A stretch of 32,000 nt of DNA from Sulfobacillus acidophilus DSM 10332 (GCA_000237975.1 CP003179.1:2354270-2386269); one strand, 5' to 3'. Positions 7,113 through 32,000 are shown, numbered from the stretch's first letter. Made by a program: numbers and translations. Notes: generated from the sequence alone by a model not told the origin.

Positions 7113-8270
7113 GTGAAGCCCAAGACGCTACACCCCAACAGCCAGGTGGTTCATGTCGGGGTAGGACAAGATCCCGCCTATGGGTCGGTCAGTACCCCCA
7201 TCTATCAAACCGTGACCTACCAACATCCGGGCGATCATTTGGGGCCATTCGACTACACCCGGACGGACAACCCCACCCGTAAAAGTTTAGCTGAAGGCCT
7301 GGCCGCAATTGAAGGAGGGGCGGGCGCCACCTTGTTTTCGTCCGGGATGGCCGCCATCACCGCGCTCTTTCACCTGTTGCACAGTCAGGACCACGTGATC
7401 CTGACCGATGACCTCTATGGGGGAACCTACCGCGTGCTGGTGGACGTCTTTGATCATTTTGGACTGACCTATACGTTTGTCGACACCCGCAATCTCGAAG
7501 CGGTCCAACAGGCATTCACGCCTCGGACGCGATTGGTCTTCATCGAGTCGCCCTCGAATCCCTTATTAAAAATAACTGACCTGAGTGCAATGGCTCGACT
7601 CGCCCACGCGCATGGCGCCTGGCTCGCGGTGGATAATACGTTTATGACCGCATTACGGCAAAAACCGTTGAATTTGGGTGCCGATTTTGTCGTCTATAGC
7701 GCTACCAAATATCTGGCCGGTCACAATGATGTGCTGGCCGGGGCGATTGTGGCCAAAACGCCCGATCTCGCCGACGCATTGAACGCTCTCGCAAACACCA
7801 CCGGCGGGGTGCTGGCCCCGTTTGACGCTTGGCTCACCCTGCGAGGGCTAAAAACCTTAGCCGTCCGGTTGGATCGGGCCGAGGCCAATGCGGAGGCCAT
7901 TGCGTCGTTTTTAAACGAGCACCCGTTAGTGGAAGCGGTATTTTATCCCGGCCTGGCCAACCATCCCGGCCGCGCCCTTCATCAACGGCAAGCCAACGGT
8001 GCCGGGGCGATGATCGCGTTTCAACTGCCGGACACATCCCGTGTCGCCGAATTTTTGGATGCCTTGCAGCTGATTTTGCCGGCGGTCTCGCTAGGTGGCA
8101 CCGAATCCCTTATGACCCACCCTTTTTCCGAAACGCACCGGGAATTTCCCGAACCGCGACGCCTTAGCCTCGGCATCCGCCCAGGCCTTATGCGGCTGTC
8201 GGTGGGTTTGGAGTATGTCGATGACCTATTGGCCGATTTAGATCAGGCTTTGTCCCGCATCCAACATTGA
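7113..8270 (+). CDS. Cys/Met-metabolism PLP enzyme (cystathionine beta-lyase/gamma-synthase family)
   Basis: Family motifs are DNPTR, SSGMAA, DDLYGGTYRV, NPLLKITDL and the PLP lysine in YSATKYLAGHNDVLAG. By eye it looks closest to Bacillus MetC-type sequences. Confidence 0.85.
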   Translation: MKPKTLHPNSQVVHVGVGQDPAYGSVSTPIYQTVTYQHPGDHLGPFDYTRTDNPTRKSLAEGLAAIEGGAGATLFSSGMAAITALFHLLHSQDHVILTDDLYGGTYRVLVDVFDHFGLTYTFVDTRNLEAVQQAFTPRTRLVFIESPSNPLLKITDLSAMARLAHAHGAWLAVDNTFMTALRQKPLNLGADFVVYSATKYLAGHNDVLAGAIVAKTPDLADALNALANTTGGVLAPFDAWLTLRGLKTLAVRLDRAEANAEAIASFLNEHPLVEAVFYPGLANHPGRALHQRQANGAGAMIAFQLPDTSRVAEFLDALQLILPAVSLGGTESLMTHPFSETHREFPEPRRLSLGIRPGLMRLSVGLEYVDDLLADLDQALSRIQH

Positions 8271-8287
8271 CGACGAAGGAGAACGGT

Positions 8288-9490
8288 ATGAAGGACGAAC
8301 AAAAAAAGGGATTACGGTGGACCAGTCAATTTATTCACACCGGACACGACATCGATCCCGAAACCCAGGCGGTGGTGCCCCCCATCTATCGGGCCACCAC
8401 CTATCACCAGCCTGATCCCTGGAATCCGCCACGCTGGGACTACGCCCGGTCGGGCAACCCGACCCGTCATGCATTGGAAGACGCAATGGCCCAGCTGGAG
8501 CACGGCGTGCGCGGCTTTGCTTTTGCATCCGGCATGGCCGCCCTGACGGCGGCGTTCTTGTTGTTCGACCAAGGCGATCACCTCTTAGTGACCGAAGACT
8601 GCCAGGGCGGAACGCAACGCGTGTTACGGGGAGTTTTTCAACGGCTGGGCATCCGCGTCAGTTATGTCGATACGAGCCGTTTGGACCAATTGGAGCAAGC
8701 CCTAACGCCCCAGACCCGCGCCGTGTTGGTGGAGAATTTCTCCAATCCCTTTTTACACGTGGCCGATATTCGCCGTATCGCCGAATGGGCCCACCAAAAG
8801 AATTTGTTGGTCCTGGTCGACAATACCTTTTTGACGCCTTATCTGCAAAACCCGCTCACTTTAGGCGCGGATTTGGTCATTCATTCCGCCACCAAAATGA
8901 TCAGCGGCCATTCCGACGTCACGGCCGGCATCATTGTCGCGGCCGACGAGGCGTTGGCCAAGCGGGTGTATTTTATTCAAAACGCGTGCGGGCTGGCCCT
9001 TTCGCCCGACGACAGCTATCTGGTATGGCGCGGGCTCCGTACGTTACCGGTTCGCATGGAACGCGCGCAAGCTTCGGCCGATGCGTTAGCCCGCGCCCTG
9101 GTCGACACGCCGGGAGTCACCGCCGTTTACTATCCCGGGCTGCCGGACCATCCCGGTCATGACGTCGCCGTCCGGGACATGCGCGGGTTTGGGCAAATGG
9201 TCACGTTTCGCCTACAACGTCCGGATTGGATAACCGATTTGGTACCCCACCTCGACTGGATTGTGATAGGAGCGGGATTAGGCGGCACGGAAACGATTAT
9301 CTCCTTGCCGGAGCTCCATTGCCATGCCGCCCTTACCCCGGAAGAACGTCAAGCGCGCGAAATTACTCCCGACGTGGTGCGGGTGTCGGTCGGCTTGGAA
9401 GATCCTCACGACATTATCCGCACCTTGACCGAAGCCGTTAAAGCGGTTAGTACGTCCCGTCCGGGTGCTGGGCCAACCATGCTTCTTTAG
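8288..9490 (+). CDS. divergent Cys/Met-metabolism PLP enzyme paralog
   Basis: ATG 8288 follows AAGGAGA. Motifs GNPTR, ASGMAA and HSATKMISGHSDVTAG (PLP lysine) are present. The conserved LYGGTYR reads CQGGTQR in this paralog. Confidence 0.8.
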   Translation: MKDEQKKGLRWTSQFIHTGHDIDPETQAVVPPIYRATTYHQPDPWNPPRWDYARSGNPTRHALEDAMAQLEHGVRGFAFASGMAALTAAFLLFDQGDHLLVTEDCQGGTQRVLRGVFQRLGIRVSYVDTSRLDQLEQALTPQTRAVLVENFSNPFLHVADIRRIAEWAHQKNLLVLVDNTFLTPYLQNPLTLGADLVIHSATKMISGHSDVTAGIIVAADEALAKRVYFIQNACGLALSPDDSYLVWRGLRTLPVRMERAQASADALARALVDTPGVTAVYYPGLPDHPGHDVAVRDMRGFGQMVTFRLQRPDWITDLVPHLDWIVIGAGLGGTETIISLPELHCHAALTPEERQAREITPDVVRVSVGLEDPHDIIRTLTEAVKAVSTSRPGAGPTMLL

Positions 9491-10992: not shown

Positions 10993-12261
10993 TCAAGACC
11001 TGAGCTTTCTTCGCCAGCTCACCCGGCTGCCCCACTCCAGCCAGGCCAAAAGTCCCACGGTGACGCCCAAGACCCACAGCATCGTCCCGGTCGTACCGGC
11101 CACAAATGCGGCCACGGAATGCGAGTAGAGCAGCCGACCGACCCACCAAATAAGCCCTAAGCCGGTGGTGCCGATCACGGCCCAGCGATTCTCCGCCACG
11201 GAAAATAGCATCAGAATATTTAAGAGACCCAGCGCCATCATACCCCAACCGAATTGGGGAAGAAAGCCTACGATAGGCAGGAAATGCCGTCCTAAAATCA
11301 CGGTCACCACCCAACGCCCGTAGAAAAGGAAAACACCCTCGGCCGTCAAGGCGATGCCCCCGTAGACCAACCCGCTAATTCCCAGAAAGCGCCACTTGCG
11401 GGCGGGATCGGCCAATATCGACGTCAACATGACCGTGCCAAAGCTGCCCGAGATAAACTGGATTGTGTGGCCAATGGTGGCTAACCCGTTATATCGCCCG
11501 GCCGGAATCGCCCCAAGCGAATGTTTCGCCAATAGCCCGTCGACAATGGAAAACAACACGTTAATGACGCCCACCACGGCGGTACCGGAAATCACCTCCG
11601 CCCGGGAGGGATCGCCGGCCGCCGGTGCCCTCTCGGTCGGCCGCCGGCTGACGCTCCAGGTGACCCAGGCAGCCACCCCCTCTAAGAGTCCGACCCAAAA
11701 CAACGGATAGCGGTGAAACACCACGGCAATGCCTGCCGCAATCACCCGAAAACCGGTATTGAGGACGGTTAGTAGTCCGGCCCAAACGTACCACCGGACC
11801 CGCTGCAAAATCCCCACGTTGGCGGCCAAGGCAAAACTCGGCACCACTTCCAGCGTAAACACGACAAGTAAAAACGGGCTCACATGTAAAAGACGACCTA
11901 AAAACGGGCTAGCAACGGCTAACGCCAACCAAATCGCGATGCCGCCTCCCCAGAGATACCACGCCTGTCGACGGCCTTTCCGTAATTTTTTCCCCATCCG
12001 CGTATAGACGAGGGTCACAACCGGCGCCGGTAGCACCAAAAACGCCGTCACGTTTAAAAAGGTCGTTAAATCGCCGTAATGGCGGGGACCCAACACGTGT
12101 GCCAAGACCACATGATAGAGGTAATTAAACAGTCCGGCGATGAGTGATGCGGCCCCAAAAATCCCGTTATCCCGCCAAAATTCGCGATCTTTCGTCCGCC
12201 TCACCTCCCTTTTCAGTGTGCCAACTCTCCCCGGAAAACATAATGACCACACGGGCCCCAA
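10993..12261 (-). CDS. polytopic membrane protein, oligosaccharide/polysaccharide flippase-like
   Basis: About 12 predicted TM helices, with an N-terminal region similar in style to Wzx/MurJ-type MOP flippases. It ends 22 nt upstream of the acyl-CoA synthetase start. The start codon (TTG 12261 in the track) is uncertain. Confidence 0.55.
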   Translation of the reverse strand: MGPVWSLCFPGRVGTLKREVRRTKDREFWRDNGIFGAASLIAGLFNYLYHVVLAHVLGPRHYGDLTTFLNVTAFLVLPAPVVTLVYTRMGKKLRKGRRQAWYLWGGGIAIWLALAVASPFLGRLLHVSPFLLVVFTLEVVPSFALAANVGILQRVRWYVWAGLLTVLNTGFRVIAAGIAVVFHRYPLFWVGLLEGVAAWVTWSVSRRPTERAPAAGDPSRAEVISGTAVVGVINVLFSIVDGLLAKHSLGAIPAGRYNGLATIGHTIQFISGSFGTVMLTSILADPARKWRFLGISGLVYGGIALTAEGVFLFYGRWVVTVILGRHFLPIVGFLPQFGWGMMALGLLNILMLFSVAENRWAVIGTTGLGLIWWVGRLLYSHSVAAFVAGTTGTMLWVLGVTVGLLAWLEWGSRVSWRRKLRS

Positions 12262-16796: not shown

Positions 16797-18005
16797 TTAA
16801 CTTGCCGGGCGGGTTTGGGGCTCCGCCGGCAATAAAAAGCTGCCCACCACGCCCAATAGAGACGCCAGGCCGGCCACGCCAATCATGGACGCATAGTTTC
16901 CGCCCAGTGAAATCCATAACCCCATCCCGAGCGGGACCAGCACCGCCGCCAAAAAACCGGCCGTGTTGGCTAATCCGGCGGCTAATCCTTGTTCTTCCAG
17001 CGGGAAAAAGTGACGGGTCACCGCGAAGGTAAGGACACTGGCTCCGTTAGCCAACCCCGTCAAGCCGAACAGCGTTAATAAGGCCCAACTCGGGAACCAG
17101 GAGGATCCCCACGTCCATATCATCCACGCCACCGCGTTTTCGACGGCCACGAACCGATAAGGCCAGACCACACCAAACCGATCAGCCAAAATCCCGCCCA
17201 AAGGCCCACCAAGTAAAGACCCCAAAAGACCGGCCGCCATATACAGGCTGGCCGTAACGCGGCCGACATGATGGACCGTTTCTAAGTAGGGCACCGCCAG
17301 AAGGCTGACGAATCCTAAAAATGGACCCATCATGCCCCAATGGCCTAAAACCGGCCCCCATAGGCGAGGGCGTTTTTGCCATACAGCCTGCCAGGGTAGT
17401 CCCCGCCGAACGCGCGCGGTCGCACCGGGAGCCGGGGCCCAGCGAAAAAACACGCCCCACGACACGGCCGCCATCGCAATTAAAAAGCCGCCCATGGCTA
17501 AAAACGGAGTCCGCCACCCGGATCCTTGAATCCATACCGCCAGCGGAAACGTGCCGAAAATCGCGCCAATATTCCCCGTCATGGCCACCAAACCGATAAT
17601 CCGGCCAAAAATCCCCGGGCTAAAGCGCCGCGCCAATACCTGAACAATATTGAGCCAAATCAAGGCGTCGCCCAGCCCCACCACGCCGCGCGACAGCACG
17701 ACGGTAAAAAACGTATGGGATAGGCCAAATAAGACCGTTCCCACGCCATCCAGCACCGCACCCGCCACCAGTAGCGCTTCCGCCGGCCAGCGCTGTCCGA
17801 CCCAGGTGACCGGCACTTGCAACGTAGCATATACGAAATACTGCGCGAGCGTCATCAGGGACAACACCGCCGGGGACACCCGGTAGAGGTGAAGGAGTTC
17901 CGGCGTCACCAACCCGGGGGCCGTCCGCTCCATAAATATCAGGCCGTAGATCAGGGCCACCGTCAAAAACACACCGAACAACGCGCGAGGCGATTCTTGT
18001 ATCAT
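16797..18005 (-). CDS. MFS transporter
   Basis: About 12 TM helices with an MFS-like loop (SRGVVGLGDA). The start is uncertain: I favour ATG 18005 (MIQESPRALF), while the track uses 18089. Confidence 0.7.
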   Translation of the reverse strand: MIQESPRALFGVFLTVALIYGLIFMERTAPGLVTPELLHLYRVSPAVLSLMTLAQYFVYATLQVPVTWVGQRWPAEALLVAGAVLDGVGTVLFGLSHTFFTVVLSRGVVGLGDALIWLNIVQVLARRFSPGIFGRIIGLVAMTGNIGAIFGTFPLAVWIQGSGWRTPFLAMGGFLIAMAAVSWGVFFRWAPAPGATARVRRGLPWQAVWQKRPRLWGPVLGHWGMMGPFLGFVSLLAVPYLETVHHVGRVTASLYMAAGLLGSLLGGPLGGILADRFGVVWPYRFVAVENAVAWMIWTWGSSWFPSWALLTLFGLTGLANGASVLTFAVTRHFFPLEEQGLAAGLANTAGFLAAVLVPLGMGLWISLGGNYASMIGVAGLASLLGVVGSFLLPAEPQTRPAS

Positions 18006-18089
18006 AACCCCATCATACCGCCTTTTCGTCGACGGACCGGTGCTCGCATAATCTTCTGAACAGGGAAGCCGCCATATGACGTCATTCAA

Positions 18090-18172
18090 CTTTTTTATTT
18101 TTAGGTATTGACAGACTAGTGTGATCTCTGAGACATTTAAAATGTAGTAATCCTATACGGTCACTCATCTAT
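18090..18172. promoter_or_regulatory. AT-rich divergent control region between the MFS gene and the sulfur-relay operon
   Basis: The most AT-rich stretch I noticed in the window. It holds a consensus TTGACA at 18108..18113 with no well-spaced -10. TGTGA-N6-AGACA lies at 18120..18135. A perfect inverted repeat ACATTT-a-AAATGT lies at 18133..18145. Confidence 0.4.
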
Positions 18173-19564
18173 GTGGGGGCGTTGGATATCATGGGCCTCG
18201 CCTATTGGATCAACGCCGCACCCCTATCCTTAGTCAGCGGATGGAGTTTTCTCGCCGCATTCAACCAACAGGAAAGACAGCACGGATATCCTTGGTGGAC
18301 ACGATCTGGACGATGGGCAGGCTGGAGTTTGCCTCTCATCGGGCTTTGGTGGATCGTGTGGGGTCTGCGGCACCCGATCCTGCTAACCGGAACAGCCAGG
18401 GCGGACCTCGCCGTTTTGTGGTTCGGCGAATTAAGCCTCGTCGGGTTGCGGAGGCCAGGCCGGTTCTCGGCCCTGTTCGCCGGAATCGTCGGTTTCCTGG
18501 CGCTTTTCGGTTTGAATCATCTGATGGCCCAGGGACTGTTGGCCCATCCCCTTCCCCTCAAGGGGGCTCCGAGCTATCCGATTCACGGATGGCCGACGGC
18601 CCTCTGGTTGACCGGCTGTGAAGCATCTGCCGCCGTCGCCGGCTTGAGTCTGGGAAGCCGGGCGGGGACAGAACAGCAGCTGGTGCGAGGTCTCCTCGCG
18701 CTGACGGGTACTGTCATCACGGGATTTTTCTTTACGAAATCCCTTATGGGCCCTTATTTACCGGCGTGGGCCAATTTAATGGACGGCTCCAGCCGCCACT
18801 GGTGGTATTGGATGGCCGACGGGGTCATGGGCTTATTTTGCTTCACCGGGCTACGGTTTTGGGCCCGGGGCCCCGGCGGTCGCGTCGCCGCCCTCGTCAC
18901 GAGCGCCGTACTCGTCGTCGGGCTGGTTTTGTTGGTCCATTGGGCAACCCGTGCCATGGTACCCGATTTTGCCACCCAAATGGGGCAGGCCGCCCTCCTG
19001 TTTGGCGTCCTCGGCGCCGTTATCGGCATCCTCGGGTCGGCGAATAGCCTTTGGCAAGCCGAACGGTTGCTGTTGGTAGGGGTGTCGGGTCTCTGGAGTA
19101 TCGCCTTAACGGGTGCTTTTCAGTCGTTGGCGATGAAAAACCATTGGGTGCCGCGACCGCCCATATCTCAGGTGCCGGCGACGACGGCGGCCGAGATTCA
19201 AGCCGGTCGGGAATTAGCCCAAAACCTGGGCTGTTATACCTGCCATGGGGTGAACGGCACCCAGGACCGCCCCAATCCGGGGGATCCCGGCCAATGGGTA
19301 TGGGCGTGGAATTCGGCGCCCTTTCACCATGTATTTGGCGGGCCTTCCGGTCGACAAAAACTCTGGACCTTATTGTGGAACGGTCAGTACGCGTACCGGA
19401 TGACATTTTACCCCTATCAACACAACTGGTCCGTCGCGTACGACACCATCGACAACCACTACAACGTCCCCGCGTGGAATGGCATTGTGACCGCTCAACA
19501 AATGCAGTGGCTGGTGAGTTATATCCAAAGTCTATCGGTCTCGCCGACCGGGAAAGGAAGGTAA
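18173..19564 (+). CDS. polytopic membrane protein fused to a C-terminal mono-haem c-type cytochrome domain
   Basis: About 10 hydrophobic helices over about 330 aa, followed by a soluble domain with haem motif CYTCH (19232..19246). The C-terminus is cytochrome-c-like (QQMQWLVSYIQSL). The start may be ATG 18191 instead of GTG 18173. Confidence 0.7.
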   Translation: MGALDIMGLAYWINAAPLSLVSGWSFLAAFNQQERQHGYPWWTRSGRWAGWSLPLIGLWWIVWGLRHPILLTGTARADLAVLWFGELSLVGLRRPGRFSALFAGIVGFLALFGLNHLMAQGLLAHPLPLKGAPSYPIHGWPTALWLTGCEASAAVAGLSLGSRAGTEQQLVRGLLALTGTVITGFFFTKSLMGPYLPAWANLMDGSSRHWWYWMADGVMGLFCFTGLRFWARGPGGRVAALVTSAVLVVGLVLLVHWATRAMVPDFATQMGQAALLFGVLGAVIGILGSANSLWQAERLLLVGVSGLWSIALTGAFQSLAMKNHWVPRPPISQVPATTAAEIQAGRELAQNLGCYTCHGVNGTQDRPNPGDPGQWVWAWNSAPFHHVFGGPSGRQKLWTLLWNGQYAYRMTFYPYQHNWSVAYDTIDNHYNVPAWNGIVTAQQMQWLVSYIQSLSVSPTGKGR

Positions 19565-19568
19565 CCGC

Positions 19569-19943
19569 GTGGCCCATCTGGTTGTGATGACCACCGACGC
19601 ACCCGAAAAGTGGGCGGATGCCGGCGAATTCGTCGTCCACTTCATCCTCGCCGCCCTTGCCGAAGGACATCGCGTCGACCTCTTGAGTGCCGGCGACGCG
19701 GTCCAAAGCCTCAGGCTTTCATCGCCGTGGTCCGATTTGGCCGTCGGTCGGCCAGACGGATTATTCCGCTGGCATGCCTGCGGGCATGCGTGTCATACCT
19801 CCGGTATCGCCGCCCCGGATTTGCCGCCGACCGCCGTGCTATCCAGCACCACCCAATTCGGTCAGCTCATGCGACAGGCCGACTGTACCGTCATTTTGGA
19901 ACCGGGGAGGATGGCGTCATGGACAACCGCATCGGGGTCGTGA
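19569..19943 (+). CDS. dsrE: DsrE/TusD-like sulfur-relay protein
   Basis: GTG 19569 lies 7 nt after GGAAAGGAAGG and 4 nt after the preceding stop. The DsrE-family N-terminus is HLVVMTTDAPEKW...ALAEGHRVDLL. A candidate active-site region is WHACGHACHTSGI. Confidence 0.65.
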   Translation: MAHLVVMTTDAPEKWADAGEFVVHFILAALAEGHRVDLLSAGDAVQSLRLSSPWSDLAVGRPDGLFRWHACGHACHTSGIAAPDLPPTAVLSSTTQFGQLMRQADCTVILEPGRMASWTTASGS

Positions 19944-20224
19944 TTCAACGCCCGCCGGACGATCGGCTGGCCGAACTCCTGCGCATCACCTTGGGCCTTT
20001 ATACCGCGGACGTGTTGGCCGGCGTCGTGGTTTGGGGACACGGTTGCGCAGTGTTTCAAGACGACCAAAACCCGGCGGCCCGGCAAATCTGCCGCTATTT
20101 GGAGGAACTGGTCGAGTGCGACGTGCCCGTGTATCAGACCGAAGGCTCCGGCCCGCTCGCGTCGATCAGCCCCCGAAAGGCCGCCGAGTGGCTGAAAGAC
20201 ATCCGCTGGGTCATTGTCCATTAA
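19919..20224 (+). CDS. dsrF: DsrF/TusC-like sulfur-relay protein
   Basis: ATG 19919 follows GGGGAGGA and overlaps the dsrE-like gene by 25 nt. The translation MDNRIGVVIQRPPDDRLAELLRITLGLYTADV..VVVWGHGCAVF fits the DsrE/F fold pattern. The upstream part of track ORF 19610..20224 is a GC artefact. Confidence 0.6.
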   Translation: MDNRIGVVIQRPPDDRLAELLRITLGLYTADVLAGVVVWGHGCAVFQDDQNPAARQICRYLEELVECDVPVYQTEGSGPLASISPRKAAEWLKDIRWVIVH

Positions 20225-20256
20225 ATGTCCCTAAAGGTAAAGGAGGCAGAGTTCAT

Positions 20257-20541
20257 ATGACCACGATTTTGGCTAGCCAGTGGGAGTCGCTGTTACCGGT
20301 GTTGGAACAGATCGTGGCCACCGAATCACATCACTCGGTCAACGTCATCTTGTATGGCGCCGCCTTATCCGCACCTGACCAGGCGTTGGCGGATTGGTCG
20401 CCGGACGGACTCTCGTCCGTGACCTTTTATTGCCCGCCGACGGGGTCGACATCCCGGCCCGATTTCGCGGTGACGGCGAGTTACCCAGAATTGGTGGCCT
20501 TGACCGTCAGCGCCGATCGCGTGATTTCCGTAACCGCTTAA
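20257..20541 (+). CDS. dsrH: DsrH/TusB-like sulfur-relay protein
   Basis: ATG 20257 follows AAAGGAGG. The 94-aa product has a layout like TusB: VNVILYGAAL, VTFYC, and YPELVALTVSADRVISV at the C-terminus. Confidence 0.6.
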   Translation: MTTILASQWESLLPVLEQIVATESHHSVNVILYGAALSAPDQALADWSPDGLSSVTFYCPPTGSTSRPDFAVTASYPELVALTVSADRVISVTA

Positions 20542-20571
20542 ATTCGAGAGAAAAGATTGGAGGGATGTTTC

Positions 20572-20835
20572 ATGCATGACGCTTCAACCCCTGTTCAAAA
20601 CTTGGCCCCTGACGAAGTGTTTGACGTCCGGGGCGAAACCTGCCCGTTTCCGGCGATGTATAGCCAACGGAAATTAAAAAAACTGCCGGCCGGCCGCGTC
20701 ATCGAAATACTCATTGACCATCCGCCCGCGGCGGAAGAAACCGTACCCGGCATCTGCGCCGAGAAAAACTGGCCCTACCATTCCGTCAAAGAAGACGGGT
20801 ATTGGCGGATTAAAGTGTTTAAAACCCATCCGTAA
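20572..20835 (+). CDS. tusA: TusA-family sulfurtransferase
   Basis: ATG 20572 lies 7 nt after GGAGGG. The diagnostic motif DVRGETCPFP (CPxP with the active Cys) is present. The size of about 87 aa fits the family. Confidence 0.85.
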   Translation: MHDASTPVQNLAPDEVFDVRGETCPFPAMYSQRKLKKLPAGRVIEILIDHPPAAEETVPGICAEKNWPYHSVKEDGYWRIKVFKTHP

Positions 20836-20853
20836 TCGAGAGGAGCACACTCC

Positions 20854-22113
20854 ATGACGATATTGGCCAATTTGCCGGCCATCACGCCCGGCTGGGTGTT
20901 GATCGGACTTTTCGTCCTGTTAGGTATTGGCTTTGGCATAATCCTGGAGCGAAGCCGCTTTTGCTTCACCACGGCTTTTCAAGAAACCATGGAATTTCGT
21001 AATCCGTGGATTTTACAAGCCGTCTTTCTCTGGATGGGCTTGTCGGCTTTGGTCGTTTCGGGCCTGACCGAATGGGGCGGCGTCCAGCCGCAATTGTTTA
21101 ATCAAGGGTGGTACACCGTGTTCGGCGGCTTTTTGTTCGGGACCGGCATGAGCATGTGTGGGGCGTGTGCCTCGGGTCAACTCTTCCGAGCCGGCTCCGG
21201 CTACGTCGCCAACTGGATGGAATTCATCGGAGCCGGATTCGGCGGCATCTTGTTCGCCCTCTGGTTCTACCCGGCCGTAGAACAGCGCGCGCTCGCGCAT
21301 TCGCAACCGCTGTCGTTACCGGCGACCCTCCACGTGCCGCCCATCGTCTGGGGGCTGGGCAGTGCCGTGTTATTTTTGGGTCTGGCGTGGCGCCTTCACC
21401 GGCGGGTTCCCCAACGGCGATCGGCCTCTTATCAGGAAAAAACCTTTCGCTTGTCGCTTCGGCATCCCTGGAATCCCTTAGCCGGCGCGATTTTGTTAAC
21501 CGTGTTATCCACCCTCTACCTCGTCCTTTCCTCCGGCACGTCCATGAGCATCAATACCCCCAACACGTTGACGATTGCCTGGTTAGTCAATTGGGTGACC
21601 AAACCGTTAGGGTACAATTTGGCCACGCACGGTTTTTTCGTGGAAGCCGACTATCACCATCACATTTATTCCCGGCTCTCCCCGCTGGCGCTAAACCAGA
21701 TATATGAACCGCATTTTGGCCATCATTTGGGCGATCTCGCCCTCGGCGTCTGGCTTTTCATCCCGCTTACGATTGTGGGGGCCTTCTTATCGTCCCGCAT
21801 CGCCGGGGAATTTAAATGGCGGATCCCCCAAAAGCGCAGCAAACTGCTCTGGTATTTAATTGGCGGGGTCATTATGGGCTTTGGCGCAGCCACCGCGCTG
21901 GGCTGCAATATCGGCGCCTGGACCGAAAGTTTCGCTGCCCGCTTTGACTTGTCCGGGCTCCTCTTCACCGTCGGCATGTTTCCCGGCGTCTGGTTCGGCA
22001 CCCGGCTGGATGAATGGGTGGCGGATCGGTTGTGGGGATTTGACCAACCGACCCCGGTCCTCCGTCCCCGACCCCGAGAAGCGATGCCCGCCCAAGCGGT
22101 CGAAGACCGTTAA
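20854..22113 (+). CDS. yeeE: YeeE/YedE-family sulfur-compound (thiosulfate-type) transporter
   Basis: Polytopic protein with the three family Cys-containing segments (ERSRFCFTTAF, MSMCGACASGQLF, ALGCNIGAW). It lies directly downstream of tusA, as in known YeeE/YeeD-type pairs. Confidence 0.8.
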   Translation: MTILANLPAITPGWVLIGLFVLLGIGFGIILERSRFCFTTAFQETMEFRNPWILQAVFLWMGLSALVVSGLTEWGGVQPQLFNQGWYTVFGGFLFGTGMSMCGACASGQLFRAGSGYVANWMEFIGAGFGGILFALWFYPAVEQRALAHSQPLSLPATLHVPPIVWGLGSAVLFLGLAWRLHRRVPQRRSASYQEKTFRLSLRHPWNPLAGAILLTVLSTLYLVLSSGTSMSINTPNTLTIAWLVNWVTKPLGYNLATHGFFVEADYHHHIYSRLSPLALNQIYEPHFGHHLGDLALGVWLFIPLTIVGAFLSSRIAGEFKWRIPQKRSKLLWYLIGGVIMGFGAATALGCNIGAWTESFAARFDLSGLLFTVGMFPGVWFGTRLDEWVADRLWGFDQPTPVLRPRPREAMPAQAVEDR

Positions 22114-22141
22114 GCATTCCACCCCAAGAGGAGGGTTTCCC

Positions 22142-22324
22142 ATGTCTGAGCTATGGACCGAACACCGGTCAGCACTCTGGTCCCTGTTTGTAGCCATCTT
22201 GTTATTGGCCGTTTTCATGGCCAAACCGCCGGTCAACGCCAGTACCGCCCCCACGACCCATCCGGCCCACAGCACGCCCGGTAAGGCAAGCACTCCCACC
22301 ATGGGTGTCGGCTGTGGCGGATAG
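22142..22324 (+). CDS. 60-aa membrane-anchored peptide with a Pro/Thr/Ser-rich linker and C-terminal GVGCGG
   Basis: ATG 22142 lies 6 nt after GAGGAGGG. One TM helix (ALWSLFVAILLLAVFMA) is present. The single Cys is third from the C-terminus. The ORF is embedded in a longer artefactual track ORF (21860..22324). Confidence 0.5.
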   Translation: MSELWTEHRSALWSLFVAILLLAVFMAKPPVNASTAPTTHPAHSTPGKASTPTMGVGCGG

Positions 22325-22350
22325 ATCTTTTAGAGAGGACGATTAATCGC

Positions 22351-23517
22351 ATGCGAGTTCCTGTACGGCTATCGGCCGTCGCCACCATCTTAGCCAGCCT
22401 GGCGGCCGGATGTGGCCAAACAACCACTCCGACAGCCACGACCGAACCGGCCGTGCATCCGGCACCGCCGTCCGACGGCTATGTCTTTGTCATGAACACC
22501 GGTTCGGACACGATTTCCGTGATCGACCCGAAAACCAATACGGTCATCAAAACCCTCAATGCCCAGGGCATGACCCTGTCCCCGTACCCGTCGGACCAAT
22601 ATGCCCCCGGATCGGGTTATGTTCTCTCGGGCTGGAAAAATACCTTATCCATTTTGAAGGTATCCGGCACGTCGGTTTCTCTGGTGAAAAACATCCCCTT
22701 ACCGACGAGTGTAACCACCAAAAACGGGACGCCGGTTCCCCAAACGGGCGTGTGGGGTGACATCACGCCGAGTGGCACCGGGGTTGTCGCGGTGCGCGAA
22801 GCCGAGAAATATCTCTTTTTGAACATGAATCCCCACAGCAAGACCTTTGGCCAAGTCGAATATTCCATTGATACGGCCCAGTTAGGTCCCCACGGGACCG
22901 GCATCGGGCCCTGAGACGTCTCCTTCTCCCCCGGTGGGGGACTTTGCTTTGTACCCTGTATCTACAGCAATCAGATTCAAGTGTTAAATGTGGCAAAACA
23001 CGAGGTGGTTTCGACGATCGCCAGCGCCGTGCCCAAACCGACCATGGATACCGTGTCGTGGAACGGTAAATATCTCATTGTGGAGGATACGGCCAATCTG
23101 GCCAATCAAGTCACCATCTATTCCTTGACCAACCCGGAAACGCCGGTCGCGCTAGCTACTTTGACGGCGGGCGTCGCTCCCAACACCGATCAAGTGGCTC
23201 CCAACAACCAATATACGTTTGAAATCTCGTCGGGTAACCCGAAAGCGCACATCAACGGGTCCGTCGAAGTCATTCAATTGTCGGACCATCCCTCCGTCAT
23301 CAAAACGATTGCCTTACCCGGATCCGGCGATACCGTGGGCACCTTTTCTCCGAACGGCCAGTACCTTTATGTCAATGTCCCCTCAATCAACAAGGTGGCG
23401 GTCATCTCGGTGTCGTCACAAAAGTTGGTCGACATGATATCCGTGGGCCAAGACCCGGGCGGACTCTTTACCAGTCATTACGATTGGGTTACGCGGCCAC
23501 CCGCCACGTCGAGTTAG
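22351..23517 (+). CDS. YVTN-type beta-propeller lipoprotein, one gene interrupted by an in-frame TGA at 22912..22914 (Sec/recoding candidate or pseudogene)
   Basis: Lipobox LAAGC and YVTN-like repeats (YVFVMNTGSDTISVIDPKTNTVIKTL; VGTFSPNGQYLYVNVPSINKVAVISV). Track ORFs 22351..22914 and 22981..23517 are in the same frame. The 66 nt between them encode a repeat-consistent DVSFSPGGGLCFVPCIYSNQIQVLNV. There is no SD before 22981. Confidence 0.7.
22912..22941 (+). other. in-frame UGA plus downstream GC hairpin (candidate SECIS-like/recoding element)
   Basis: UGA is followed 12 nt later by the hairpin UCCCCC-GGU-GGGGGA (22927..22941). The loop GGU occupies nt 22-24 counted from the U of UGA. Confidence 0.35.
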
Positions 23518-23528
23518 GGGGTGACGTC

Positions 23529-23615
23529 ATGACCCCTTTGATCGATGTAGCTCTCGGTGTCCTCGGTGCCGGATTGGTCATTTGGCAACTGCTCCTGAAA
23601 GACGTATTAAAATAG
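23529..23615 (+). CDS. 28-aa hydrophobic peptide (MTPLIDVALGVLGAGLVIWQLLLKDVLK)
   Basis: ATG 23529 lies 5 nt after GGGGGTG and 11 nt after the propeller stop. The stop is 3 nt before the terminator hairpin. Not in the ORF track because it is too short. Confidence 0.35.
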   Translation: MTPLIDVALGVLGAGLVIWQLLLKDVLK

Positions 23616-23618
23616 GCG

Positions 23619-23652
23619 AAAGGCCAGGTCTTCTTCGAGAAGGCCTGGCCTT
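23619..23652. terminator. bidirectional terminator hairpin between the sulfur operon and codY
   Basis: AAGGCCAGGTCTTC-TTCGA-GAAGGCCTGGCCTT forms a stem of about 14 bp. It sits between convergent genes ending at 23615 (+) and 23672 (-). Confidence 0.7.
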
Positions 23653-23671
23653 AACCTCTTCCCGGATCGGG

Positions 23672-24454
23672 TTACCGTTGCAACTTCTTGAGTTCCCCTA
23701 ACAACCGGTCGTTTAAGACCCGAATGTGGGTGCCTTTCATCCCGAGCGAACGGGACTCGATCACGCCGGCCGACTCAAATTTGCGTAGCGCGTTCACAAT
23801 CACCGACCGGGTAATGCCTACGCGATCCGCGACCTTGGACGCGACCAGGAGTCCTTCCGGTCCGCCAAGCTCTTCGAAAATGTGCTGAACCGCTTCCAGT
23901 TCCGAATAGGATAGGGTGTCGATAGCCACTTTCACGGCCGCTTTCTTCCGTGCTTCCATTTCCAGCTCATCGGATTTCGAGCGCAGGATCTCCATCGCCA
24001 CGACGGTCGCACCATACTCGGCCAAAATCAGGTCTTCATCGGTAAACTCCCGCCCAAACCGGGAAATGACCAATGTTCCCAAGCGATCGCCACCGCCGTT
24101 GACCGGCACGATGGTCGTCAATTTGTTTTCATAAAGACAAGGCTTATCATGGAAGAAGACACACTGCCGGGCTTGCTGCGACACATTCGGCAATGTCTCA
24201 TCCACCTTAAGAAGCCCTTGGTTATAGTTGGCGGGAAATACTTCCGGTTCAAGGACTTCACGCACCATGATGTTGCATTCGAATGAGTCCAGCAAAGAGT
24301 ACCCTAAAATCTTTCCACGCCGACTAACCACATACACGTTGGCCTGAATCAGTTCCCCTAAAATCTTGGCCATTTCCTCAAAGTTGACCGGATGACCGGC
24401 CGACCGCTGTAATAGGCGGTTAATCCGGCGCGTCTTGTCCAGCAACTGTTCCAC
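23672..24454 (-). CDS. codY: GTP/BCAA-sensing global transcriptional regulator CodY
   Basis: 260 aa with [16 protein letters not shown], a GAF-like N-domain and a C-terminal wHTH ([38 protein letters not shown]). GTG start lies 7 nt after GAGGAGGA. Position after hslU fits the conserved synteny. Confidence 0.95.
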
Positions 24455-31062: not shown

Positions 31063-31182
31063 GACTCCTTTACGCCGAATCGCGGCCGGGCGCCGCGTAC
31101 GGGGGACTTCGAGCACATCGGGGTGAATCGGCGTTTGCCGTAGGGCACCTTCTGTCCGAACCCGCAACTAACCTCGGAGGCA
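31063..31182 (+). promoter_or_regulatory. c-di-AMP riboswitch (ydaO/yuaA class)
   Basis: Blocks matching my memory of the ydaO consensus occur in order: AAUCGC, ACGGGGGAC, GGGGUGAAUC, then CCGAACCCGCAACUAACCUCGGAGGC. The 3' end contains the GGAGG SD of the downstream gene. It sits upstream of a cell-wall hydrolase, a classic context for this class. Confidence 0.85.
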
Positions 31183-31186
31183 ATTT

Positions 31187-32000
31187 ATGAAGGAAGGGAG
31201 CCTGACTGTGTCTCGTTATCCCAAAGCCCTGGCGGGTCTTTCCGCCTTGGGGTTGATGTTCGCGTTTGCTCCTCTGGCCGATGCCGCCAGCTTGACCGGC
31301 ATTTATGGTCCCGGGGCTACCGGCAGTTCCGTCGCCTTGTTACAGACCGAATTGACCCGCGCGGGCTATCCGGTTCCGGCCACCGGCTATTTTGGGCCCA
31401 TAACCGAAAATGCCGTGCGAAGTTTTCAATCGGCACATGGTTTAGTCGTCGACGGGTGGGTCGGACCCGCCACCGAAGCCGCATTGGCGTCGACCGGAAC
31501 CTTATCCGGATCCCAAACGACCAACCAATATACCGTGGAACCCGGCGATACCCTATTCGGCATCGCCCAGAAGTTTCACACCACGGTGGACACCTTGGTC
31601 AGCTTAAACCATCTGGCCAATCCCAATTGGCTCATGGTCGGCCAAACGTTGACGGTTCCCGCCGGCCTATCCGCCAGTGCCTTTCAGCCCGCCGTCACTG
31701 CGTCCGGCGGGGCTCAATCGCAATCCGGTACGGAAAAATACGTCGTGCAGGCGGGAAATACGCTCGCCGGAATTGCCGCGCTGTTTCACACCAGCTGGCA
31801 AAATCTCGCCGCCCTGAATCATCTCGGTAATCCGAACGTCATCTGGGTCGGCGAAACCCTAACGGTGCCTGCCGGCAATGCCACCCCGCCGGCGAACCCC
31901 CCGACCTCCGCAAGCGTTAGCTTGCCGGTTGAAGCGGCACCCATGTCGTCCGGACAAGCCATTGCTTCCTTGGCGCTCAAATATTTGGGGGTTCCGTACG
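31187..32000 (+). CDS. secreted cell-wall hydrolase: PG-binding domain + 2x LysM + start of an NlpC/P60 domain (3' partial)
   Basis: ATG 31187 lies 6 nt after GGAGG, with an alternative in-frame GTG at 31208. The signal peptide ends ...APLADA. The PG_binding_1-like segment is VALLQTELTRAGYPV..GYFGPITENAVRSFQSAHGLVVDGWVGPAT. Two LysM repeats are present (YTVEPGDTLFGIAQKF...; YVVQAGNTLAGIAALF...). The window ends in LKYLGVPY. Missing from the ORF track because there is no stop inside the window. Confidence 0.85.
   Translation, partial: MKEGSLTVSRYPKALAGLSALGLMFAFAPLADAASLTGIYGPGATGSSVALLQTELTRAGYPVPATGYFGPITENAVRSFQSAHGLVVDGWVGPATEAALASTGTLSGSQTTNQYTVEPGDTLFGIAQKFHTTVDTLVSLNHLANPNWLMVGQTLTVPAGLSASAFQPAVTASGGAQSQSGTEKYVVQAGNTLAGIAALFHTSWQNLAALNHLGNPNVIWVGETLTVPAGNATPPANPPTSASVSLPVEAAPMSSGQAIASLALKYLGVPY

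What the first reader, a model, noticed from the sequence alone, without database searches (positions are those of the whole stretch)
18090..23652. Compact nine-gene unit: membrane cytochrome c, DsrEFH-like trio, TusA, YeeE, Cys-tailed peptide, propeller lipoprotein
All nine ORFs are co-directional. The junctions in order are a 4-nt gap, a 25-nt overlap, then gaps of 32, 30, 18, 28, 26 and 11 nt. The unit begins after an AT-rich control region and ends 3 nt before a roughly 14-bp bidirectional terminator hairpin. TusA with YeeE is a known sulfur-compound uptake pairing, and DsrEFH/TusBCD are known cytoplasmic persulfide relays. Here they are joined to a haem-c membrane protein and to two exported or tethered proteins whose only cysteines are positioned like carrier sites. 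No DsrC/TusE, Hdr-like, Sox or rhodanese gene is in the window. My inference is a self-contained route: capture or activation of extracellular sulfur (propeller, peptide), import (YeeE), cytoplasmic relay (TusA, DsrEFH-like), and an electron outlet (cytochrome fusion). I cannot tell from the sequence alone whether this exact architecture has been described.
Basis: partly seen in the sequence, partly recalled or inferred. Interest (0 to 1): 0.75.

Follow-up and report, generated by a model that had tools for sequence, protein, structure and literature searches.

The report
Sulfur-import operon hiding a selenoprotein
The nine-gene unit is real and conserved, and its "propeller lipoprotein" gene contains a stop codon that is almost certainly read as selenocysteine, so this acid-loving bacterium appears to use an exported selenium-containing protein with a YeeE/TusA/DsrEFH-like sulfur import and relay system.

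Summary
All nine co-directional ORFs and all eight junctions (4, -25, 32, 30, 18, 28, 26, 11 nt) are exactly as described. One point was missed: the propeller ORF is open only if an in-frame TGA (22912-22914) is read through. That TGA lies at the same codon in three divergent lineages and aligns with Cys (P-C-D motif) in at least 20 full-length homologue clusters. A conserved GC hairpin with a GGU/GGG loop follows it, and the genome carries tRNA-Sec, SelA, SelB and SelD. I conclude it is an unannotated selenoprotein, which public annotation splits into two genes.

Family calls hold: cytochrome c, TusA and YeeE pass Pfam. The DsrEFH-like trio is supported only through orthologues and profiles. 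Gene order is conserved in other genera of the class. In one genome the core sits directly upstream of the sHdr-LbpA sulfur-oxidation cluster. Distant Cys-type propellers also sit beside YeeE and TusA.

Best reading: a capture, import and relay module for scarce reduced sulfur, with a Sec nucleophile and a SoxY-like Cys-tailed peptide outside the cell. The function itself is inferred, not shown.

The parts
18090..18172 (.). AT-rich spacer between the divergent MFS transporter gene (16797-18089, minus strand) and the unit. It is the presumed promoter/control region.
   Evidence: GC 0.31 against 0.57 for the window. The strict sigma-70 consensus scan found no site. Only two short palindromes were found.
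18173..19564 (+). O1: polytopic membrane protein of about 330 aa (about 10 predicted helices) fused to a C-terminal class I cytochrome c domain with a CxxCH motif (Cys354/Cys357/His358). The true start is probably ATG 18191.
   Evidence: Pfam Cytochrom_C, 28.8 bits, residues 343-455. The close homologue P0151 starts at the ATG. Only 3 relatives were found among 5.8 billion proteins. Orthologues occur in 5 of 210 genomes of the class. The membrane domain has no family or fold match.
19569..19943 (+). O2: divergent DsrE/TusD-like subunit with the invariant active-site-type Cys71. The usual Arg of the C-x6-RG motif is replaced (TSG).
   Evidence: Own Pfam DsrE score is 19 bits, below the 22.7 cut-off. 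The syntenic orthologue scores 46.8 bits. The family profile matches TusD at 3e-7 and DsrE at 3.2e-7 in PDB. Cys is invariant in 5 lineages.
19919..20224 (+). O3: divergent DsrF/TusC-like subunit. It overlaps O2 by 25 nt.
   Evidence: No Pfam hit of its own. The orthologue scores DsrE 36.1 bits. The profile matches YchN at 9e-5 and DsrF at 6e-3.
20257..20541 (+). O4: divergent DsrH/TusB-like subunit.
   Evidence: No Pfam hit of its own. The orthologue scores DsrH 44.8 bits. The profile matches TusB at 5e-5 and DsrH at 6.5e-5.
20572..20835 (+). O5: TusA-family sulfur carrier with the CPxP cysteine motif (Cys24).
   Evidence: Pfam TusA 53.3 bits. 69% identical to the orthologue in the other genus.
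20854..22113 (+). O6: YeeE/YedE-family transporter (Sulf_transp), with the three cysteine motifs of TsuA. It is the only member of this family in the genome.
   Evidence: Pfam 170.6 bits. It aligns to S. thermophila TsuA 6LEO, including the RxxFCF, GACASG and LGCNIG motifs. It is well below all NCBIfam equivalog cut-offs. It is the only Sulf_transp match in the genome.
22142..22324 (+). O7: 60-aa peptide with one N-terminal hydrophobic helix, a Pro/Thr/Ser/Ala-rich linker and a C-terminal GVGCGG-COOH tail. Cys58 is its only Cys.
   Evidence: Sequence. The same tail is present in the orthologues, and a GFGGC-COOH tail occurs in a distant Cys-propeller locus. Only 4 proteins of this kind were found in 5.8 billion. 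It is not annotated in strain TPY, where the 237-nt gap matches.
22351..23517 (+). O8: lipoprotein (lipobox Cys21) forming a 7-bladed YVTN-type beta-propeller. Selenocysteine is at residue 188 (motif GP-U-D), with Cys203 fifteen residues downstream.
   Evidence: TIGR02276 44.6 bits and YNCE 34.3 bits. The AlphaFold2 model of the read-through protein has pLDDT 86.7 and pTM 0.85. Fold matches are generic propellers only, TM up to 0.67 by the query.
22912..22914 (+). In-frame TGA read as selenocysteine (Sec188 of O8).
   Evidence: The TGA is at the same codon in three lineages at 40-59% identity. Cys is at this column in 25 homologue clusters. tRNA-Sec, SelA, SelB and SelD are in the genome. The TGA is unchanged in contigs of an RNA run.
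22927..22941 (+). SECIS-like hairpin: a 6-bp G/C stem with a GGU triloop, starting 15 nt after the U of UGA.
   Evidence: The hairpin sits at the same place in all Sec lineages. The two outer pairs change on both sides (U-A, C-G in the window; G-C, G-C in L038). No dedicated SECIS predictor was available.
23529..23615 (+). O9: 28-aa single-helix membrane peptide.
   Evidence: A strong SD-like motif precedes it. A 28-aa counterpart sits at the end of the unit in the other genus.
23620..23652 (.). Perfect 15-bp hairpin between the unit and the convergent codY gene. The U-tract lies on the codY side only.
   Evidence: -32.5 kcal/mol, z -4.5, 0 of 200 shuffles fold as well.

Best explanation
The unit is one co-regulated operon encoding a capture, import and relay system for reduced sulfur that is scarce outside the cell.

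Outside the membrane:
- O8, a lipid-anchored 7-bladed propeller, uses selenocysteine 188 (Cys in neutral-type homologues) as the nucleophile. It takes up sulfane or thiosulfonate sulfur from S0, polysulfide, thiosulfate or tetrathionate. Cys203 may be a resolving partner.
- O7, a membrane-anchored peptide whose flexible linker ends in GVGCGG-COOH, acts like the SoxY swinging arm and carries the sulfur to the transporter.
- O1, the outward-facing haem c domain, takes or gives the electrons needed to form or resolve the Se-S/S-S adducts. This is by analogy with SoxXA coupling substrate to SoxY.

In the membrane and inside:
- YeeE (O6) passes the sulfur across the membrane.
- TusA (O5) and the DsrEFH-like trio (O2-O4, Cys71) receive it as persulfide. 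They hand it to cytoplasmic consumers, namely the sHdr-LbpA oxidation system and/or biosynthesis.

Shown here: the gene set, its order and its conservation; the family assignments; the Sec codon with Cys homologues, hairpin and Sec machinery; co-regulation; and the link to sHdr in a relative.

Inferred: the substrate, the direction of flow, the roles of O7, O1 and O9, and that Sec is actually inserted.
For: - Anatomy and junctions are exact. SD-like motifs precede O2-O9, and none precedes the internal GTG 22981.
- Sec: the TGA is conserved in three lineages. The P-C-D motif is found in 25 homologue clusters. The hairpin shows compensatory changes. tRNA-Sec scores 73 bits and ARAGORN calls SeC. 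SelA scores 551, SelB 339 and SelD 357 bits. SelA is also present in the other genome carrying the TGA. The full-length read-through folds as a complete propeller, pLDDT 86.7.
- Order conservation: the full unit is in G017/L030, L040 and L042. Cytochrome, TusA, YeeE, DsrEFH and Sec propeller are together in L038. The core (cytochrome, DsrEFH, TusA, YeeE) is in G026 and G104, and cytochrome-TusA-YeeE in G103.
- Link to sulfur oxidation: in G104 the core is followed on the same strand by TusA, DsrE3, HdrC1, HdrB1, HdrA, HdrC2, HdrB2, LbpA and a lipoate ligase.
- Distant Cys propellers sit with YeeE, TusA, a Cys-tailed peptide, three small DsrE/F/H-like genes, LbpA and radical-SAM genes in L032/L033. 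In L037 one sits with rhodanese, YeeE and TusA.
- Co-regulation: TPY_1251 to TPY_1258 have identical lengths and gaps to O1-O6 and the two halves of O8. All are higher on FeSO4 than on S0, log2 3.28 to 5.81 with one at 2.16 (PMC5114278 supplement).
- Contigs of a 2016 RNA run cover 18159-24000 without a difference and bridge all junctions.
- The C-terminal GGCGG cysteine of SoxY is an established sulfur-binding site (PMC6067878). YeeE(TsuA)-YeeD(TsuB) is a solved transporter/carrier pair.
Against: - No biochemical datum exists for any of the nine products.
- Expression is low on S0, the obvious substrate. The same direction is shown by the assimilatory sat/cysH/cysI/cysK genes and by the hdr cluster, so it cannot separate oxidation from assimilation.
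- The window's DsrE/F/H-like proteins are very divergent (26-31% identity to orthologues against 68-69% for TusA and YeeE). They fail Pfam cut-offs and have lost the Arg of the C-x6-RG motif.
- The genome has no DsrC/TusE acceptor.
- The topology of O7 (tail outside) is not established.
- The membrane domain of O1 is an orphan, and its model failed (pLDDT 43).
- Three Cys-propeller loci have no YeeE nearby (L031, L034, L035).
- The SECIS-like hairpin has a small 3-nt loop. The 70-nt stretch around it does not fold better than shuffles (z +1.27).
Confidence: 0.5

Rival explanations
1. Purely assimilatory scavenging. The unit is a TsuA/TsuB-like uptake system for thiosulfate or another sulfur source for cysteine synthesis. 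It is derepressed with the cys regulon when only sulfate is available, and the outside proteins serve as binding or processing factors.
For: All genes are up on FeSO4 together with sat, cysH, cysI, the sirohaem genes and cysK. O6 is the only YeeE-family gene in the genome. O6 keeps the three TsuA cysteines. YeeE/YeeD is a thiosulfate uptake pair for assimilation (PDB 8K1R/8J4C names).
Against: A membrane cytochrome c and a DsrEFH-like trio are not part of known assimilatory uptake. The core abuts the dissimilatory sHdr-LbpA cluster in G104, and LbpA/radical-SAM genes in L032. The hdr genes show the same FeSO4-up pattern. O6 and O5 are far below the TsuA and TsuB equivalog cut-offs.
Confidence: 0.2
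2. One reading: a self-contained dissimilatory route for extracellular S0. It is induced by sulfur substrates and passes electrons out through the cytochrome fusion.
For: The parts list is compatible. There are links to sHdr in relatives.
Against: RPKM is 2-24 on S0 against 47-224 on FeSO4. The genes that rise on S0 in that study are sor, soeABC and other tusA/rhodanese genes. No sulfur-oxidising enzyme is in the unit. The cytochrome's membrane domain has no conserved haem b or quinone-site signature.
Confidence: 0.15
3. Selenium, not sulfur, is the cargo. This would be a YedE/YedF-like selenium uptake or trafficking system, whose outer receptor happens to be a selenoprotein.
For: The best NCBIfam hits of O6 and O5 are the selenium-linked YedE/FdhT (115 bits) and YedF (34.6 bits) models. 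The unit contains a selenoprotein. The genome uses Sec.
Against: Those scores are far below the cut-offs (350 and 79), and TsuA scores about the same (107 bits). Neighbours in relatives are sulfur-oxidation genes: sHdr, LbpA and rhodanese. G103 has cytochrome-TusA-YeeE, but SelA was not found there, though that genome is only 84% complete.
Confidence: 0.1
4. The TGA is a real stop. The propeller is a broken gene or two separate small genes, and only the cytochrome-DsrEFH-TusA-YeeE core is functional.
For: Public annotation calls two genes. The core exists without a propeller in G026, G103 and G104. A paralogue has Trp, Arg or Ala at this column.
Against: The same TGA sits at the same codon in three lineages that are 40-59% identical. 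In-frame protein conservation continues across the 66 nt between the two 'genes'. No SD precedes GTG 22981, and the C-half has no signal peptide. Half a propeller would not fold, whereas the read-through gives a confident 7-blade model. Cys sits at the column in 25 clusters.
Confidence: 0.05

Closest known systems
YeeE(TsuA)-YeeD(TsuB) thiosulfate uptake pair (Spirochaeta thermophila, E. coli; PDB 6LEO, 8K1R)
   Same: A Sulf_transp membrane protein with the three conserved cysteine motifs, next to a TusA-fold carrier with a CPxP cysteine.
   Different: O6 is 419 aa with a long central insert. It scores 107 and 72 bits against cut-offs of 400 and 645 for the TsuA models, and O5 scores 16 bits against 147.5 for TsuB. 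TsuAB has no partner cytochrome, DsrEFH-like trio, propeller or Cys-tailed peptide.
SoxT1A / SoxYZ / Rhd / DsrE3C / TusA import route to sHdr-LbpA in Hyphomicrobium denitrificans (PMC11582611, PMC11094781)
   Same: The logic matches: an outside carrier with a glycine-flanked C-terminal cysteine, a YeeE-family importer, and cytoplasmic TusA/DsrE-type transferases feeding sHdr. In G104 the core lies directly before the shdr-lbpA cluster.
   Different: The outside parts differ. Here they are a Sec propeller lipoprotein, a 60-aa anchored peptide and a membrane cytochrome c, instead of SoxYZ and DsbA. The inside part is a DsrEFH-like trio instead of DsrE3/Rhd. The host is Gram-positive and acidophilic. 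That paper mentions no propeller.
DsrEFH-DsrC (Allochromatium vinosum, PDB 2HY5) and TusBCD-TusE (E. coli, PDB 2D1P)
   Same: Three paralogous DsrE-fold genes in the order E, F, H. Profiles match DsrE/TusD, DsrF and DsrH/TusB respectively. The DsrE cysteine is invariant.
   Different: No DsrC/TusE was found in the genome, and no rDsr genes were found in the window. The window's copies fail Pfam thresholds and lack the motif arginine.
SoxY sulfur-carrier arm (C-terminal GGCGG)
   Same: A single cysteine three residues from the C-terminus, flanked by glycines (GVGCGG-COOH), at the end of a flexible segment.
   Different: O7 has no SoxY immunoglobulin-like body, no SoxZ partner and no Pfam hit. 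It is anchored by its own hydrophobic helix.
Known prokaryotic selenoprotein families (2026 review PMC13188914; NCBIfam release 20)
   Same: A UGA/Cys pair, a hairpin just downstream, and misannotation as truncated genes. The list already holds Sec forms of DsrE-like, rhodanese-like and YeeE/YedE proteins, so selenium in sulfur trafficking has precedent.
   Different: The review never mentions a propeller, lactonase-like or lipoprotein family. O8 matched no selenoprotein model in NCBIfam, only generic YVTN/propeller models.

Membership tests
Bacterial selenoprotein gene | In-frame UGA conserved at the same codon in orthologues | tested here: met
   The window, the G017/L030/L040/L042 group and L038 all have TGA after G-x-G-P and before D.
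Bacterial selenoprotein gene | Cysteine at the aligned position in homologues without UGA | tested here: met
   25 of the 150 best cluster representatives have Cys aligned to residue 188. Nearly all the closest full-length ones carry P-C-D.
Bacterial selenoprotein gene | SECIS stem-loop in the coding region just after UGA | tested here: inconclusive
   A 6-bp GC stem with a GGU/GGG loop lies 15-16 nt after UGA in all lineages, with two compensatory pairs. There are only three independent sequences, the loop is 3 nt, the local fold is not better than shuffles, and no SECIS predictor was available.
Bacterial selenoprotein gene | tRNA-Sec, SelA, SelB and SelD in the genome | tested here: met
   RF01852 73 bits and ARAGORN tRNA-SeC. 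SelB 339, SelA 551 and SelD 357 bits, all above cut-off. SelA is also in G017.
Bacterial selenoprotein gene | Selenium shown in the protein | not testable with these tools
   Needs 75Se labelling or mass spectrometry.
DsrEFH / TusBCD sulfur relay complex | Three DsrE-fold subunits, each assignable to E/D, F/C and H/B | tested here: met
   Orthologues pass Pfam: DsrE 46.8, DsrE 36.1 and DsrH 44.8 bits. Profiles that include the window's proteins match TusD/DsrE, DsrF/YchN and TusB/DsrH.
DsrEFH / TusBCD sulfur relay complex | The window's own proteins reach the curated family thresholds | tested here: not met
   O2 scores 19 bits against 22.7. O3 and O4 have no hit.
DsrEFH / TusBCD sulfur relay complex | Conserved active-site cysteine in the DsrE/TusD subunit | tested here: met
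   Cys71 is invariant in five lineages. The following Arg-Gly is replaced by Ser-Gly in the window only.
DsrEFH / TusBCD sulfur relay complex | Acceptor DsrC or TusE encoded in the genome | tested here: not met
   No PF04358 match in the 99.99% complete genome. The control found it in E. coli.
YeeE/TsuA-type transporter with TusA-like partner | Sulf_transp domain, three conserved cysteine motifs, and an adjacent TusA-fold gene | tested here: met
   170.6 bits. Alignment to 6LEO. TusA 53.3 bits, 18 nt upstream.
YeeE/TsuA-type transporter with TusA-like partner | Equivalog-level identity with TsuA, TsuB, YedE or YedF | tested here: not met
   All NCBIfam scores are far below cut-off: 115/350, 107/400, 72/645, 35/79 and 16/147.5.
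SoxY carrier protein | C-terminal GGCGG cysteine arm on a SoxY fold paired with SoxZ | tested here: not met
   Only the tail resembles it (GVGCGG-COOH). There is no SoxY domain hit, the protein is 60 aa, and no SoxZ gene is present.
Class I cytochrome c | CxxCH motif and a Cytochrom_C domain above threshold | tested here: met
   28.8 bits against 21.3, with CYTCH at residues 354-358. The sixth ligand is not identified.
sHdr-associated sulfur import module | Physical linkage to shdr/lbpA genes | tested here: inconclusive
   Not linked in the window: no hdr genes among ORFs of 200 aa or more. Directly linked in G104 and near LbpA in L032/L033.

The most novel reading that the evidence does not exclude
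O8 founds a new selenoprotein family: an exported, lipid-anchored beta-propeller. Its catalytic Cys has been replaced by Sec in acidophilic Sulfobacillus-type lineages because a thiol is a poor nucleophile at the external pH of about 2. Together with a minimal membrane-anchored SoxY-like arm (O7) and an orphan membrane cytochrome c (O1), it would form a Sox-like sulfur-activating surface machine of Gram-positive acidophiles. This machine would feed YeeE, TusA and a DsrC-independent DsrEFH.
Probability: 0.25. Interest if true: 0.85.

Novelty: new variant of a known kind. Interest (0 to 1): 0.7.

Why it matters
How Gram-positive acidophiles used in bioleaching take hold of insoluble or unstable sulfur outside the cell and bring it in is unresolved. 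This unit offers a concrete, testable parts list:
- an outside nucleophile;
- a carrier arm;
- the genome's only YeeE-type transporter;
- a cytoplasmic relay.

It also adds a probable new selenoprotein family that current annotation splits into two hypothetical genes. It would be an exported selenoprotein in an organism living at very low pH, where the chemical advantage of selenol over thiol is greatest. A conjugation system for S. acidophilus TPY has been reported (PMC5114278). RNA-seq already shows when the operon is on (FeSO4 growth). Direct tests are therefore feasible.

Tried and rejected
- A metagenome-contig scan with the two-orthologue propeller alignment found no relative. The genome-contig scan found only the contig already known.
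- The structure prediction of O1 failed (pLDDT 43). The ESM Atlas look-up of its membrane domain gave no usable hit. Sequence search against PDB matched only the haem motif region. The membrane domain therefore stays unassigned.
- Foldseek of the O8 model against PDB returned only generic 7- and 8-bladed propellers: an S-layer YVTN domain, lactonases, cd1 nitrite reductase and thiocyanate dehydrogenase, TM up to 0.67 by the query. No functional lead resulted. The atlas fold search did not complete.
I did not try another route.
- The consensus promoter scan found no sigma-70 site in 17800-23900. Rfam found nothing in or next to the unit.
- The RNA-run contigs leave 17894-18158 uncovered. Contigs cannot show a transcript start, so I draw nothing from this.
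- I first suspected TPY_1113 was this TusA. Its length and neighbours do not fit. The true counterparts are TPY_1251 to TPY_1258.
- I considered reading TGA as Trp because one paralogue has Trp at the column. I rejected this because the closest full-length homologues have Cys and the Sec machinery is present.

Full report
**Observation.** A script gives exactly the stated junctions: 4, -25, 32, 30, 18, 28, 26 and 11 nt. The spacer 18090-18172 has GC 0.31 against 0.57 for the window. A perfect 15-bp hairpin (23620-23652, -32.5 kcal/mol, z -4.5) starts three or four nucleotides after the last stop and faces the convergent codY gene. Purine-rich SD-like motifs precede O2 to O9.

One thing was missed. 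The 'propeller lipoprotein' frame 22351-23517 contains an in-frame TGA at 22912-22914. Under the standard code it falls into pieces of 187 and 178 residues.

**The TGA is very probably selenocysteine.**
- A search of 40 related genomes found an orthologue in another genus (G017, 59% identity) that also carries one in-frame TGA. It sits at the same codon, G-I-G-P-TGA-D-V-S.
- A third lineage, 40% identical, from a metagenome (L038), has G-K-G-P-TGA-D-M-S. Two more contigs of the G017 type repeat the pattern.
- An exhaustive search of 1.84 billion cluster representatives returned split N- and C-halves for these lineages. It also returned full-length homologues of 350-435 residues with cysteine at that column, in a P-C-D motif. 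Of the 150 best representatives, 25 have Cys aligned to residue 188.
- In all Sec forms a 6-bp G/C stem with a GGU or GGG loop begins 15-16 nt after the U of UGA. The two outer pairs differ on both sides between the window and L038.
- The genome has a tRNA-Sec (73 bits; ARAGORN anticodon tca), SelA (551 bits), SelB (339 bits) and SelD (357 bits, itself with a TGA). G017 has SelA too.
- The read-through protein gives a confident complete 7-bladed propeller model (pLDDT 86.7, pTM 0.85).
- The 66 nt between the two annotated 'genes' are conserved in frame. The internal GTG has no SD, and the C-half has no signal peptide.
- Contigs of an RNA run carry the TGA unchanged.
- A paralogue type next to the orthologue in G017 has Trp, Arg or Ala at the column and lacks both cysteines.
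- In Sec forms residue 203 is Cys (V-P-C). In Cys forms it is Asp (I-P-D). This suggests a selenylsulfide partner, but that is an inference.

**Family assignments.**
- O1 has a C-terminal cytochrome c domain (28.8 bits, CYTCH). It follows about 330 residues with about ten predicted helices. Only three relatives exist in the 5.8-billion-protein index.
- The O1 membrane part has no family, no fold match and no invariant histidine pair.
- O5 is TusA (53 bits).
- O6 is a YeeE/Sulf_transp protein (171 bits). It aligns to the solved TsuA including its three cysteine motifs. It is far below every NCBIfam equivalog cut-off (TsuA, YedE/FdhT), so it is a separate subfamily. It is the only such gene in the genome.
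- The window's O2-O4 barely register: DsrE 19 bits for O2 and nothing for O3 and O4. Their syntenic orthologues pass Pfam as DsrE, DsrE/DsrF and DsrH. Profiles built across lineages match TusD/DsrE, DsrF/YchN and TusB/DsrH in PDB, in that gene order.
- The DsrE cysteine is invariant.
- The S. acidophilus trio is unusually divergent: 26-31% identity, against 68-69% for TusA and YeeE. The genome has no DsrC/TusE.
- O7 has one hydrophobic helix, a Pro/Thr/Ser-rich linker and a GVGCGG-COOH end. The tail is identical in the orthologues, and a GFGGC-COOH peptide sits in a distant Cys-propeller locus. The family has four members in the protein index. The tail recalls the C-terminal GGCGG cysteine of SoxY, an established sulfur-binding site (PMC6067878).

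**Conservation of the neighbourhood.**
- The whole order recurs in G017 (MAG 'Bacillota bacterium HOT.CON.99') and in two related metagenome contigs. That order is cytochrome, E, F, H, TusA, YeeE, peptide, Sec propeller, [paralogue], 28-aa peptide.
- L038 has cytochrome, TusA, YeeE, E, F, H and a Sec propeller.
- Across 210 genomes of the class, the cytochrome occurs in five. G026 and G104 have cytochrome, E, F, H, TusA and YeeE without a propeller. G103 has cytochrome, TusA and YeeE.
- In G104 the core is followed on the same strand by TusA, DsrE3, HdrC1, HdrB1, HdrA, HdrC2, HdrB2, LbpA and a lipoate ligase. This is the sHdr-LbpA sulfur-oxidation cluster.
- Distant Cys-type propellers with twin-arginine signals lie with split YeeE, TusA, a small membrane peptide, the Cys-tailed peptide and three small DsrE/F/H-like genes. 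Also present are a membrane protein with a sub-threshold DsbD_2 match, a thioredoxin-fold protein, LbpA and two radical-SAM genes (L032/L033).
- Another Cys-type propeller lies with rhodanese, YeeE and TusA (L037).
- Three other Cys-propeller loci show no YeeE within the contig.

**Expression.** The published RNA-seq of strain TPY (PMC5114278, supplementary file 3) lists TPY_1258 to TPY_1251. Their lengths are 1392, 375, 306, 285, 264, 1260, 564 and 537 nt, and their gaps are identical to the window's. O7 and O9 are not annotated there.

All eight genes are higher on FeSO4 than on S0. RPKM is 1.9-24 on S0 against 47-224 on FeSO4, and log2 is 5.81, 3.70, 2.16, 5.47, 4.62, 4.88, 4.52 and 3.28. 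Both media contain sulfate and 0.2 g/L yeast extract. The same direction is shown by the assimilatory sat/cysH/cysI and cysK genes and by the hdr cluster. In contrast, sor, soeABC and other tusA/rhodanese genes rise on S0.

Contigs of a 2016 RNA library cover 18159-24000 without a difference. They bridge every junction and the TGA. Contigs cannot prove a single transcript.

**Interpretation.**
- Three points change. The capture protein is a selenoprotein. The unit is switched on when reduced sulfur is absent, not when S0 is abundant. It is not self-contained.
- I therefore read it as a high-affinity capture and import system for scarce reduced sulfur. It would feed cytoplasmic consumers (sHdr and/or biosynthesis).
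- The haem c domain would serve the redox chemistry of adduct formation outside. This is by analogy with SoxXA, from established knowledge of the Sox system. In the distant Cys-type loci a thioredoxin-fold protein with a weakly DsbD-like membrane protein occupies the corresponding place. These roles are inferred.
They are weighed in their own sections.

**Novelty.** Full-text searches found no description of this gene set or of a propeller selenoprotein. The 2026 review of the prokaryotic selenoproteome never mentions propeller, lactonase or lipoprotein families. O8 matched no NCBIfam selenoprotein model. The search covers open-access papers only.

Noticed in passing
window 31063-31197 (+): A c-di-AMP riboswitch (RF00379, 71 bits) overlaps by 11 nt the listed start (31187, first in-frame ATG/GTG/TTG) of the next gene. 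That gene encodes LysM and peptidoglycan-binding domains and runs off the window end.
   Followed up: no
L023 (own genome, C1:1401608-1402540): The genome's SelD gene itself has an in-frame TGA near its N-terminus, followed by a long hairpin. SelD is therefore a selenoprotein here.
   Followed up: partly
L030 5331-6563 (G017); also P0008, P0026: In the G017 lineage a second propeller paralogue follows the Sec propeller with a 4-nt overlap. It lacks both the Sec/Cys and Cys203 (Trp, Arg or Ala at the column). It ends at a TGA 12 nt before the 28-aa membrane peptide. The window has no such paralogue.
   Followed up: partly
L048 about 8330-8601 (G026): After YeeE there is a peptide gene whose hydrophobic N-terminus and ...AVGCGG end lie in different frames. 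This is an apparent frameshift or an assembly error in very GC-rich DNA. No propeller follows.
   Followed up: no
P0010, P0016, P0022 (Cys-type propellers): Several Cys-type homologues carry C-terminal cysteine-rich tails (such as ...CTLPCCGERG and ...CPWECCGPV) and twin-arginine signals. They may be a fused counterpart of the separate Cys-tailed peptide O7.
   Followed up: no
window 19569-20541: The S. acidophilus DsrE/F/H-like trio is far more divergent from its orthologues (26-31%) than its operon neighbours TusA and YeeE (68-69%). O2 has lost the arginine of the C-x6-RG motif that the other four lineages keep.
   Followed up: partly
window 18173 / 18191: The first ORF probably starts at ATG 18191 rather than at the first possible GTG 18173. 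The 96% identical homologue P0151 starts there, and a G-rich stretch lies upstream. Strain TPY is annotated from the GTG.
   Followed up: partly
window 7113-9490 (+): Two adjacent Cys/Met-metabolism PLP-dependent enzyme genes (453 and 431 bits) lie 9 kb upstream of the unit. These are sulfur amino-acid metabolism genes in the same region.
   Followed up: no
window 10993-12258 (-): A 421-residue ORF has no Pfam match at E 1e-5.
   Followed up: no
L038 2584-2811 and 8609-9582: In the third Sec lineage the unit is preceded by a 75-aa lipoprotein-like peptide with a GGGCG motif. It is followed by a weakly NifU-like 211-aa protein, a 111-aa DsrE-like-looking protein with no Pfam hit, and an ArsP permease.
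   Followed up: no
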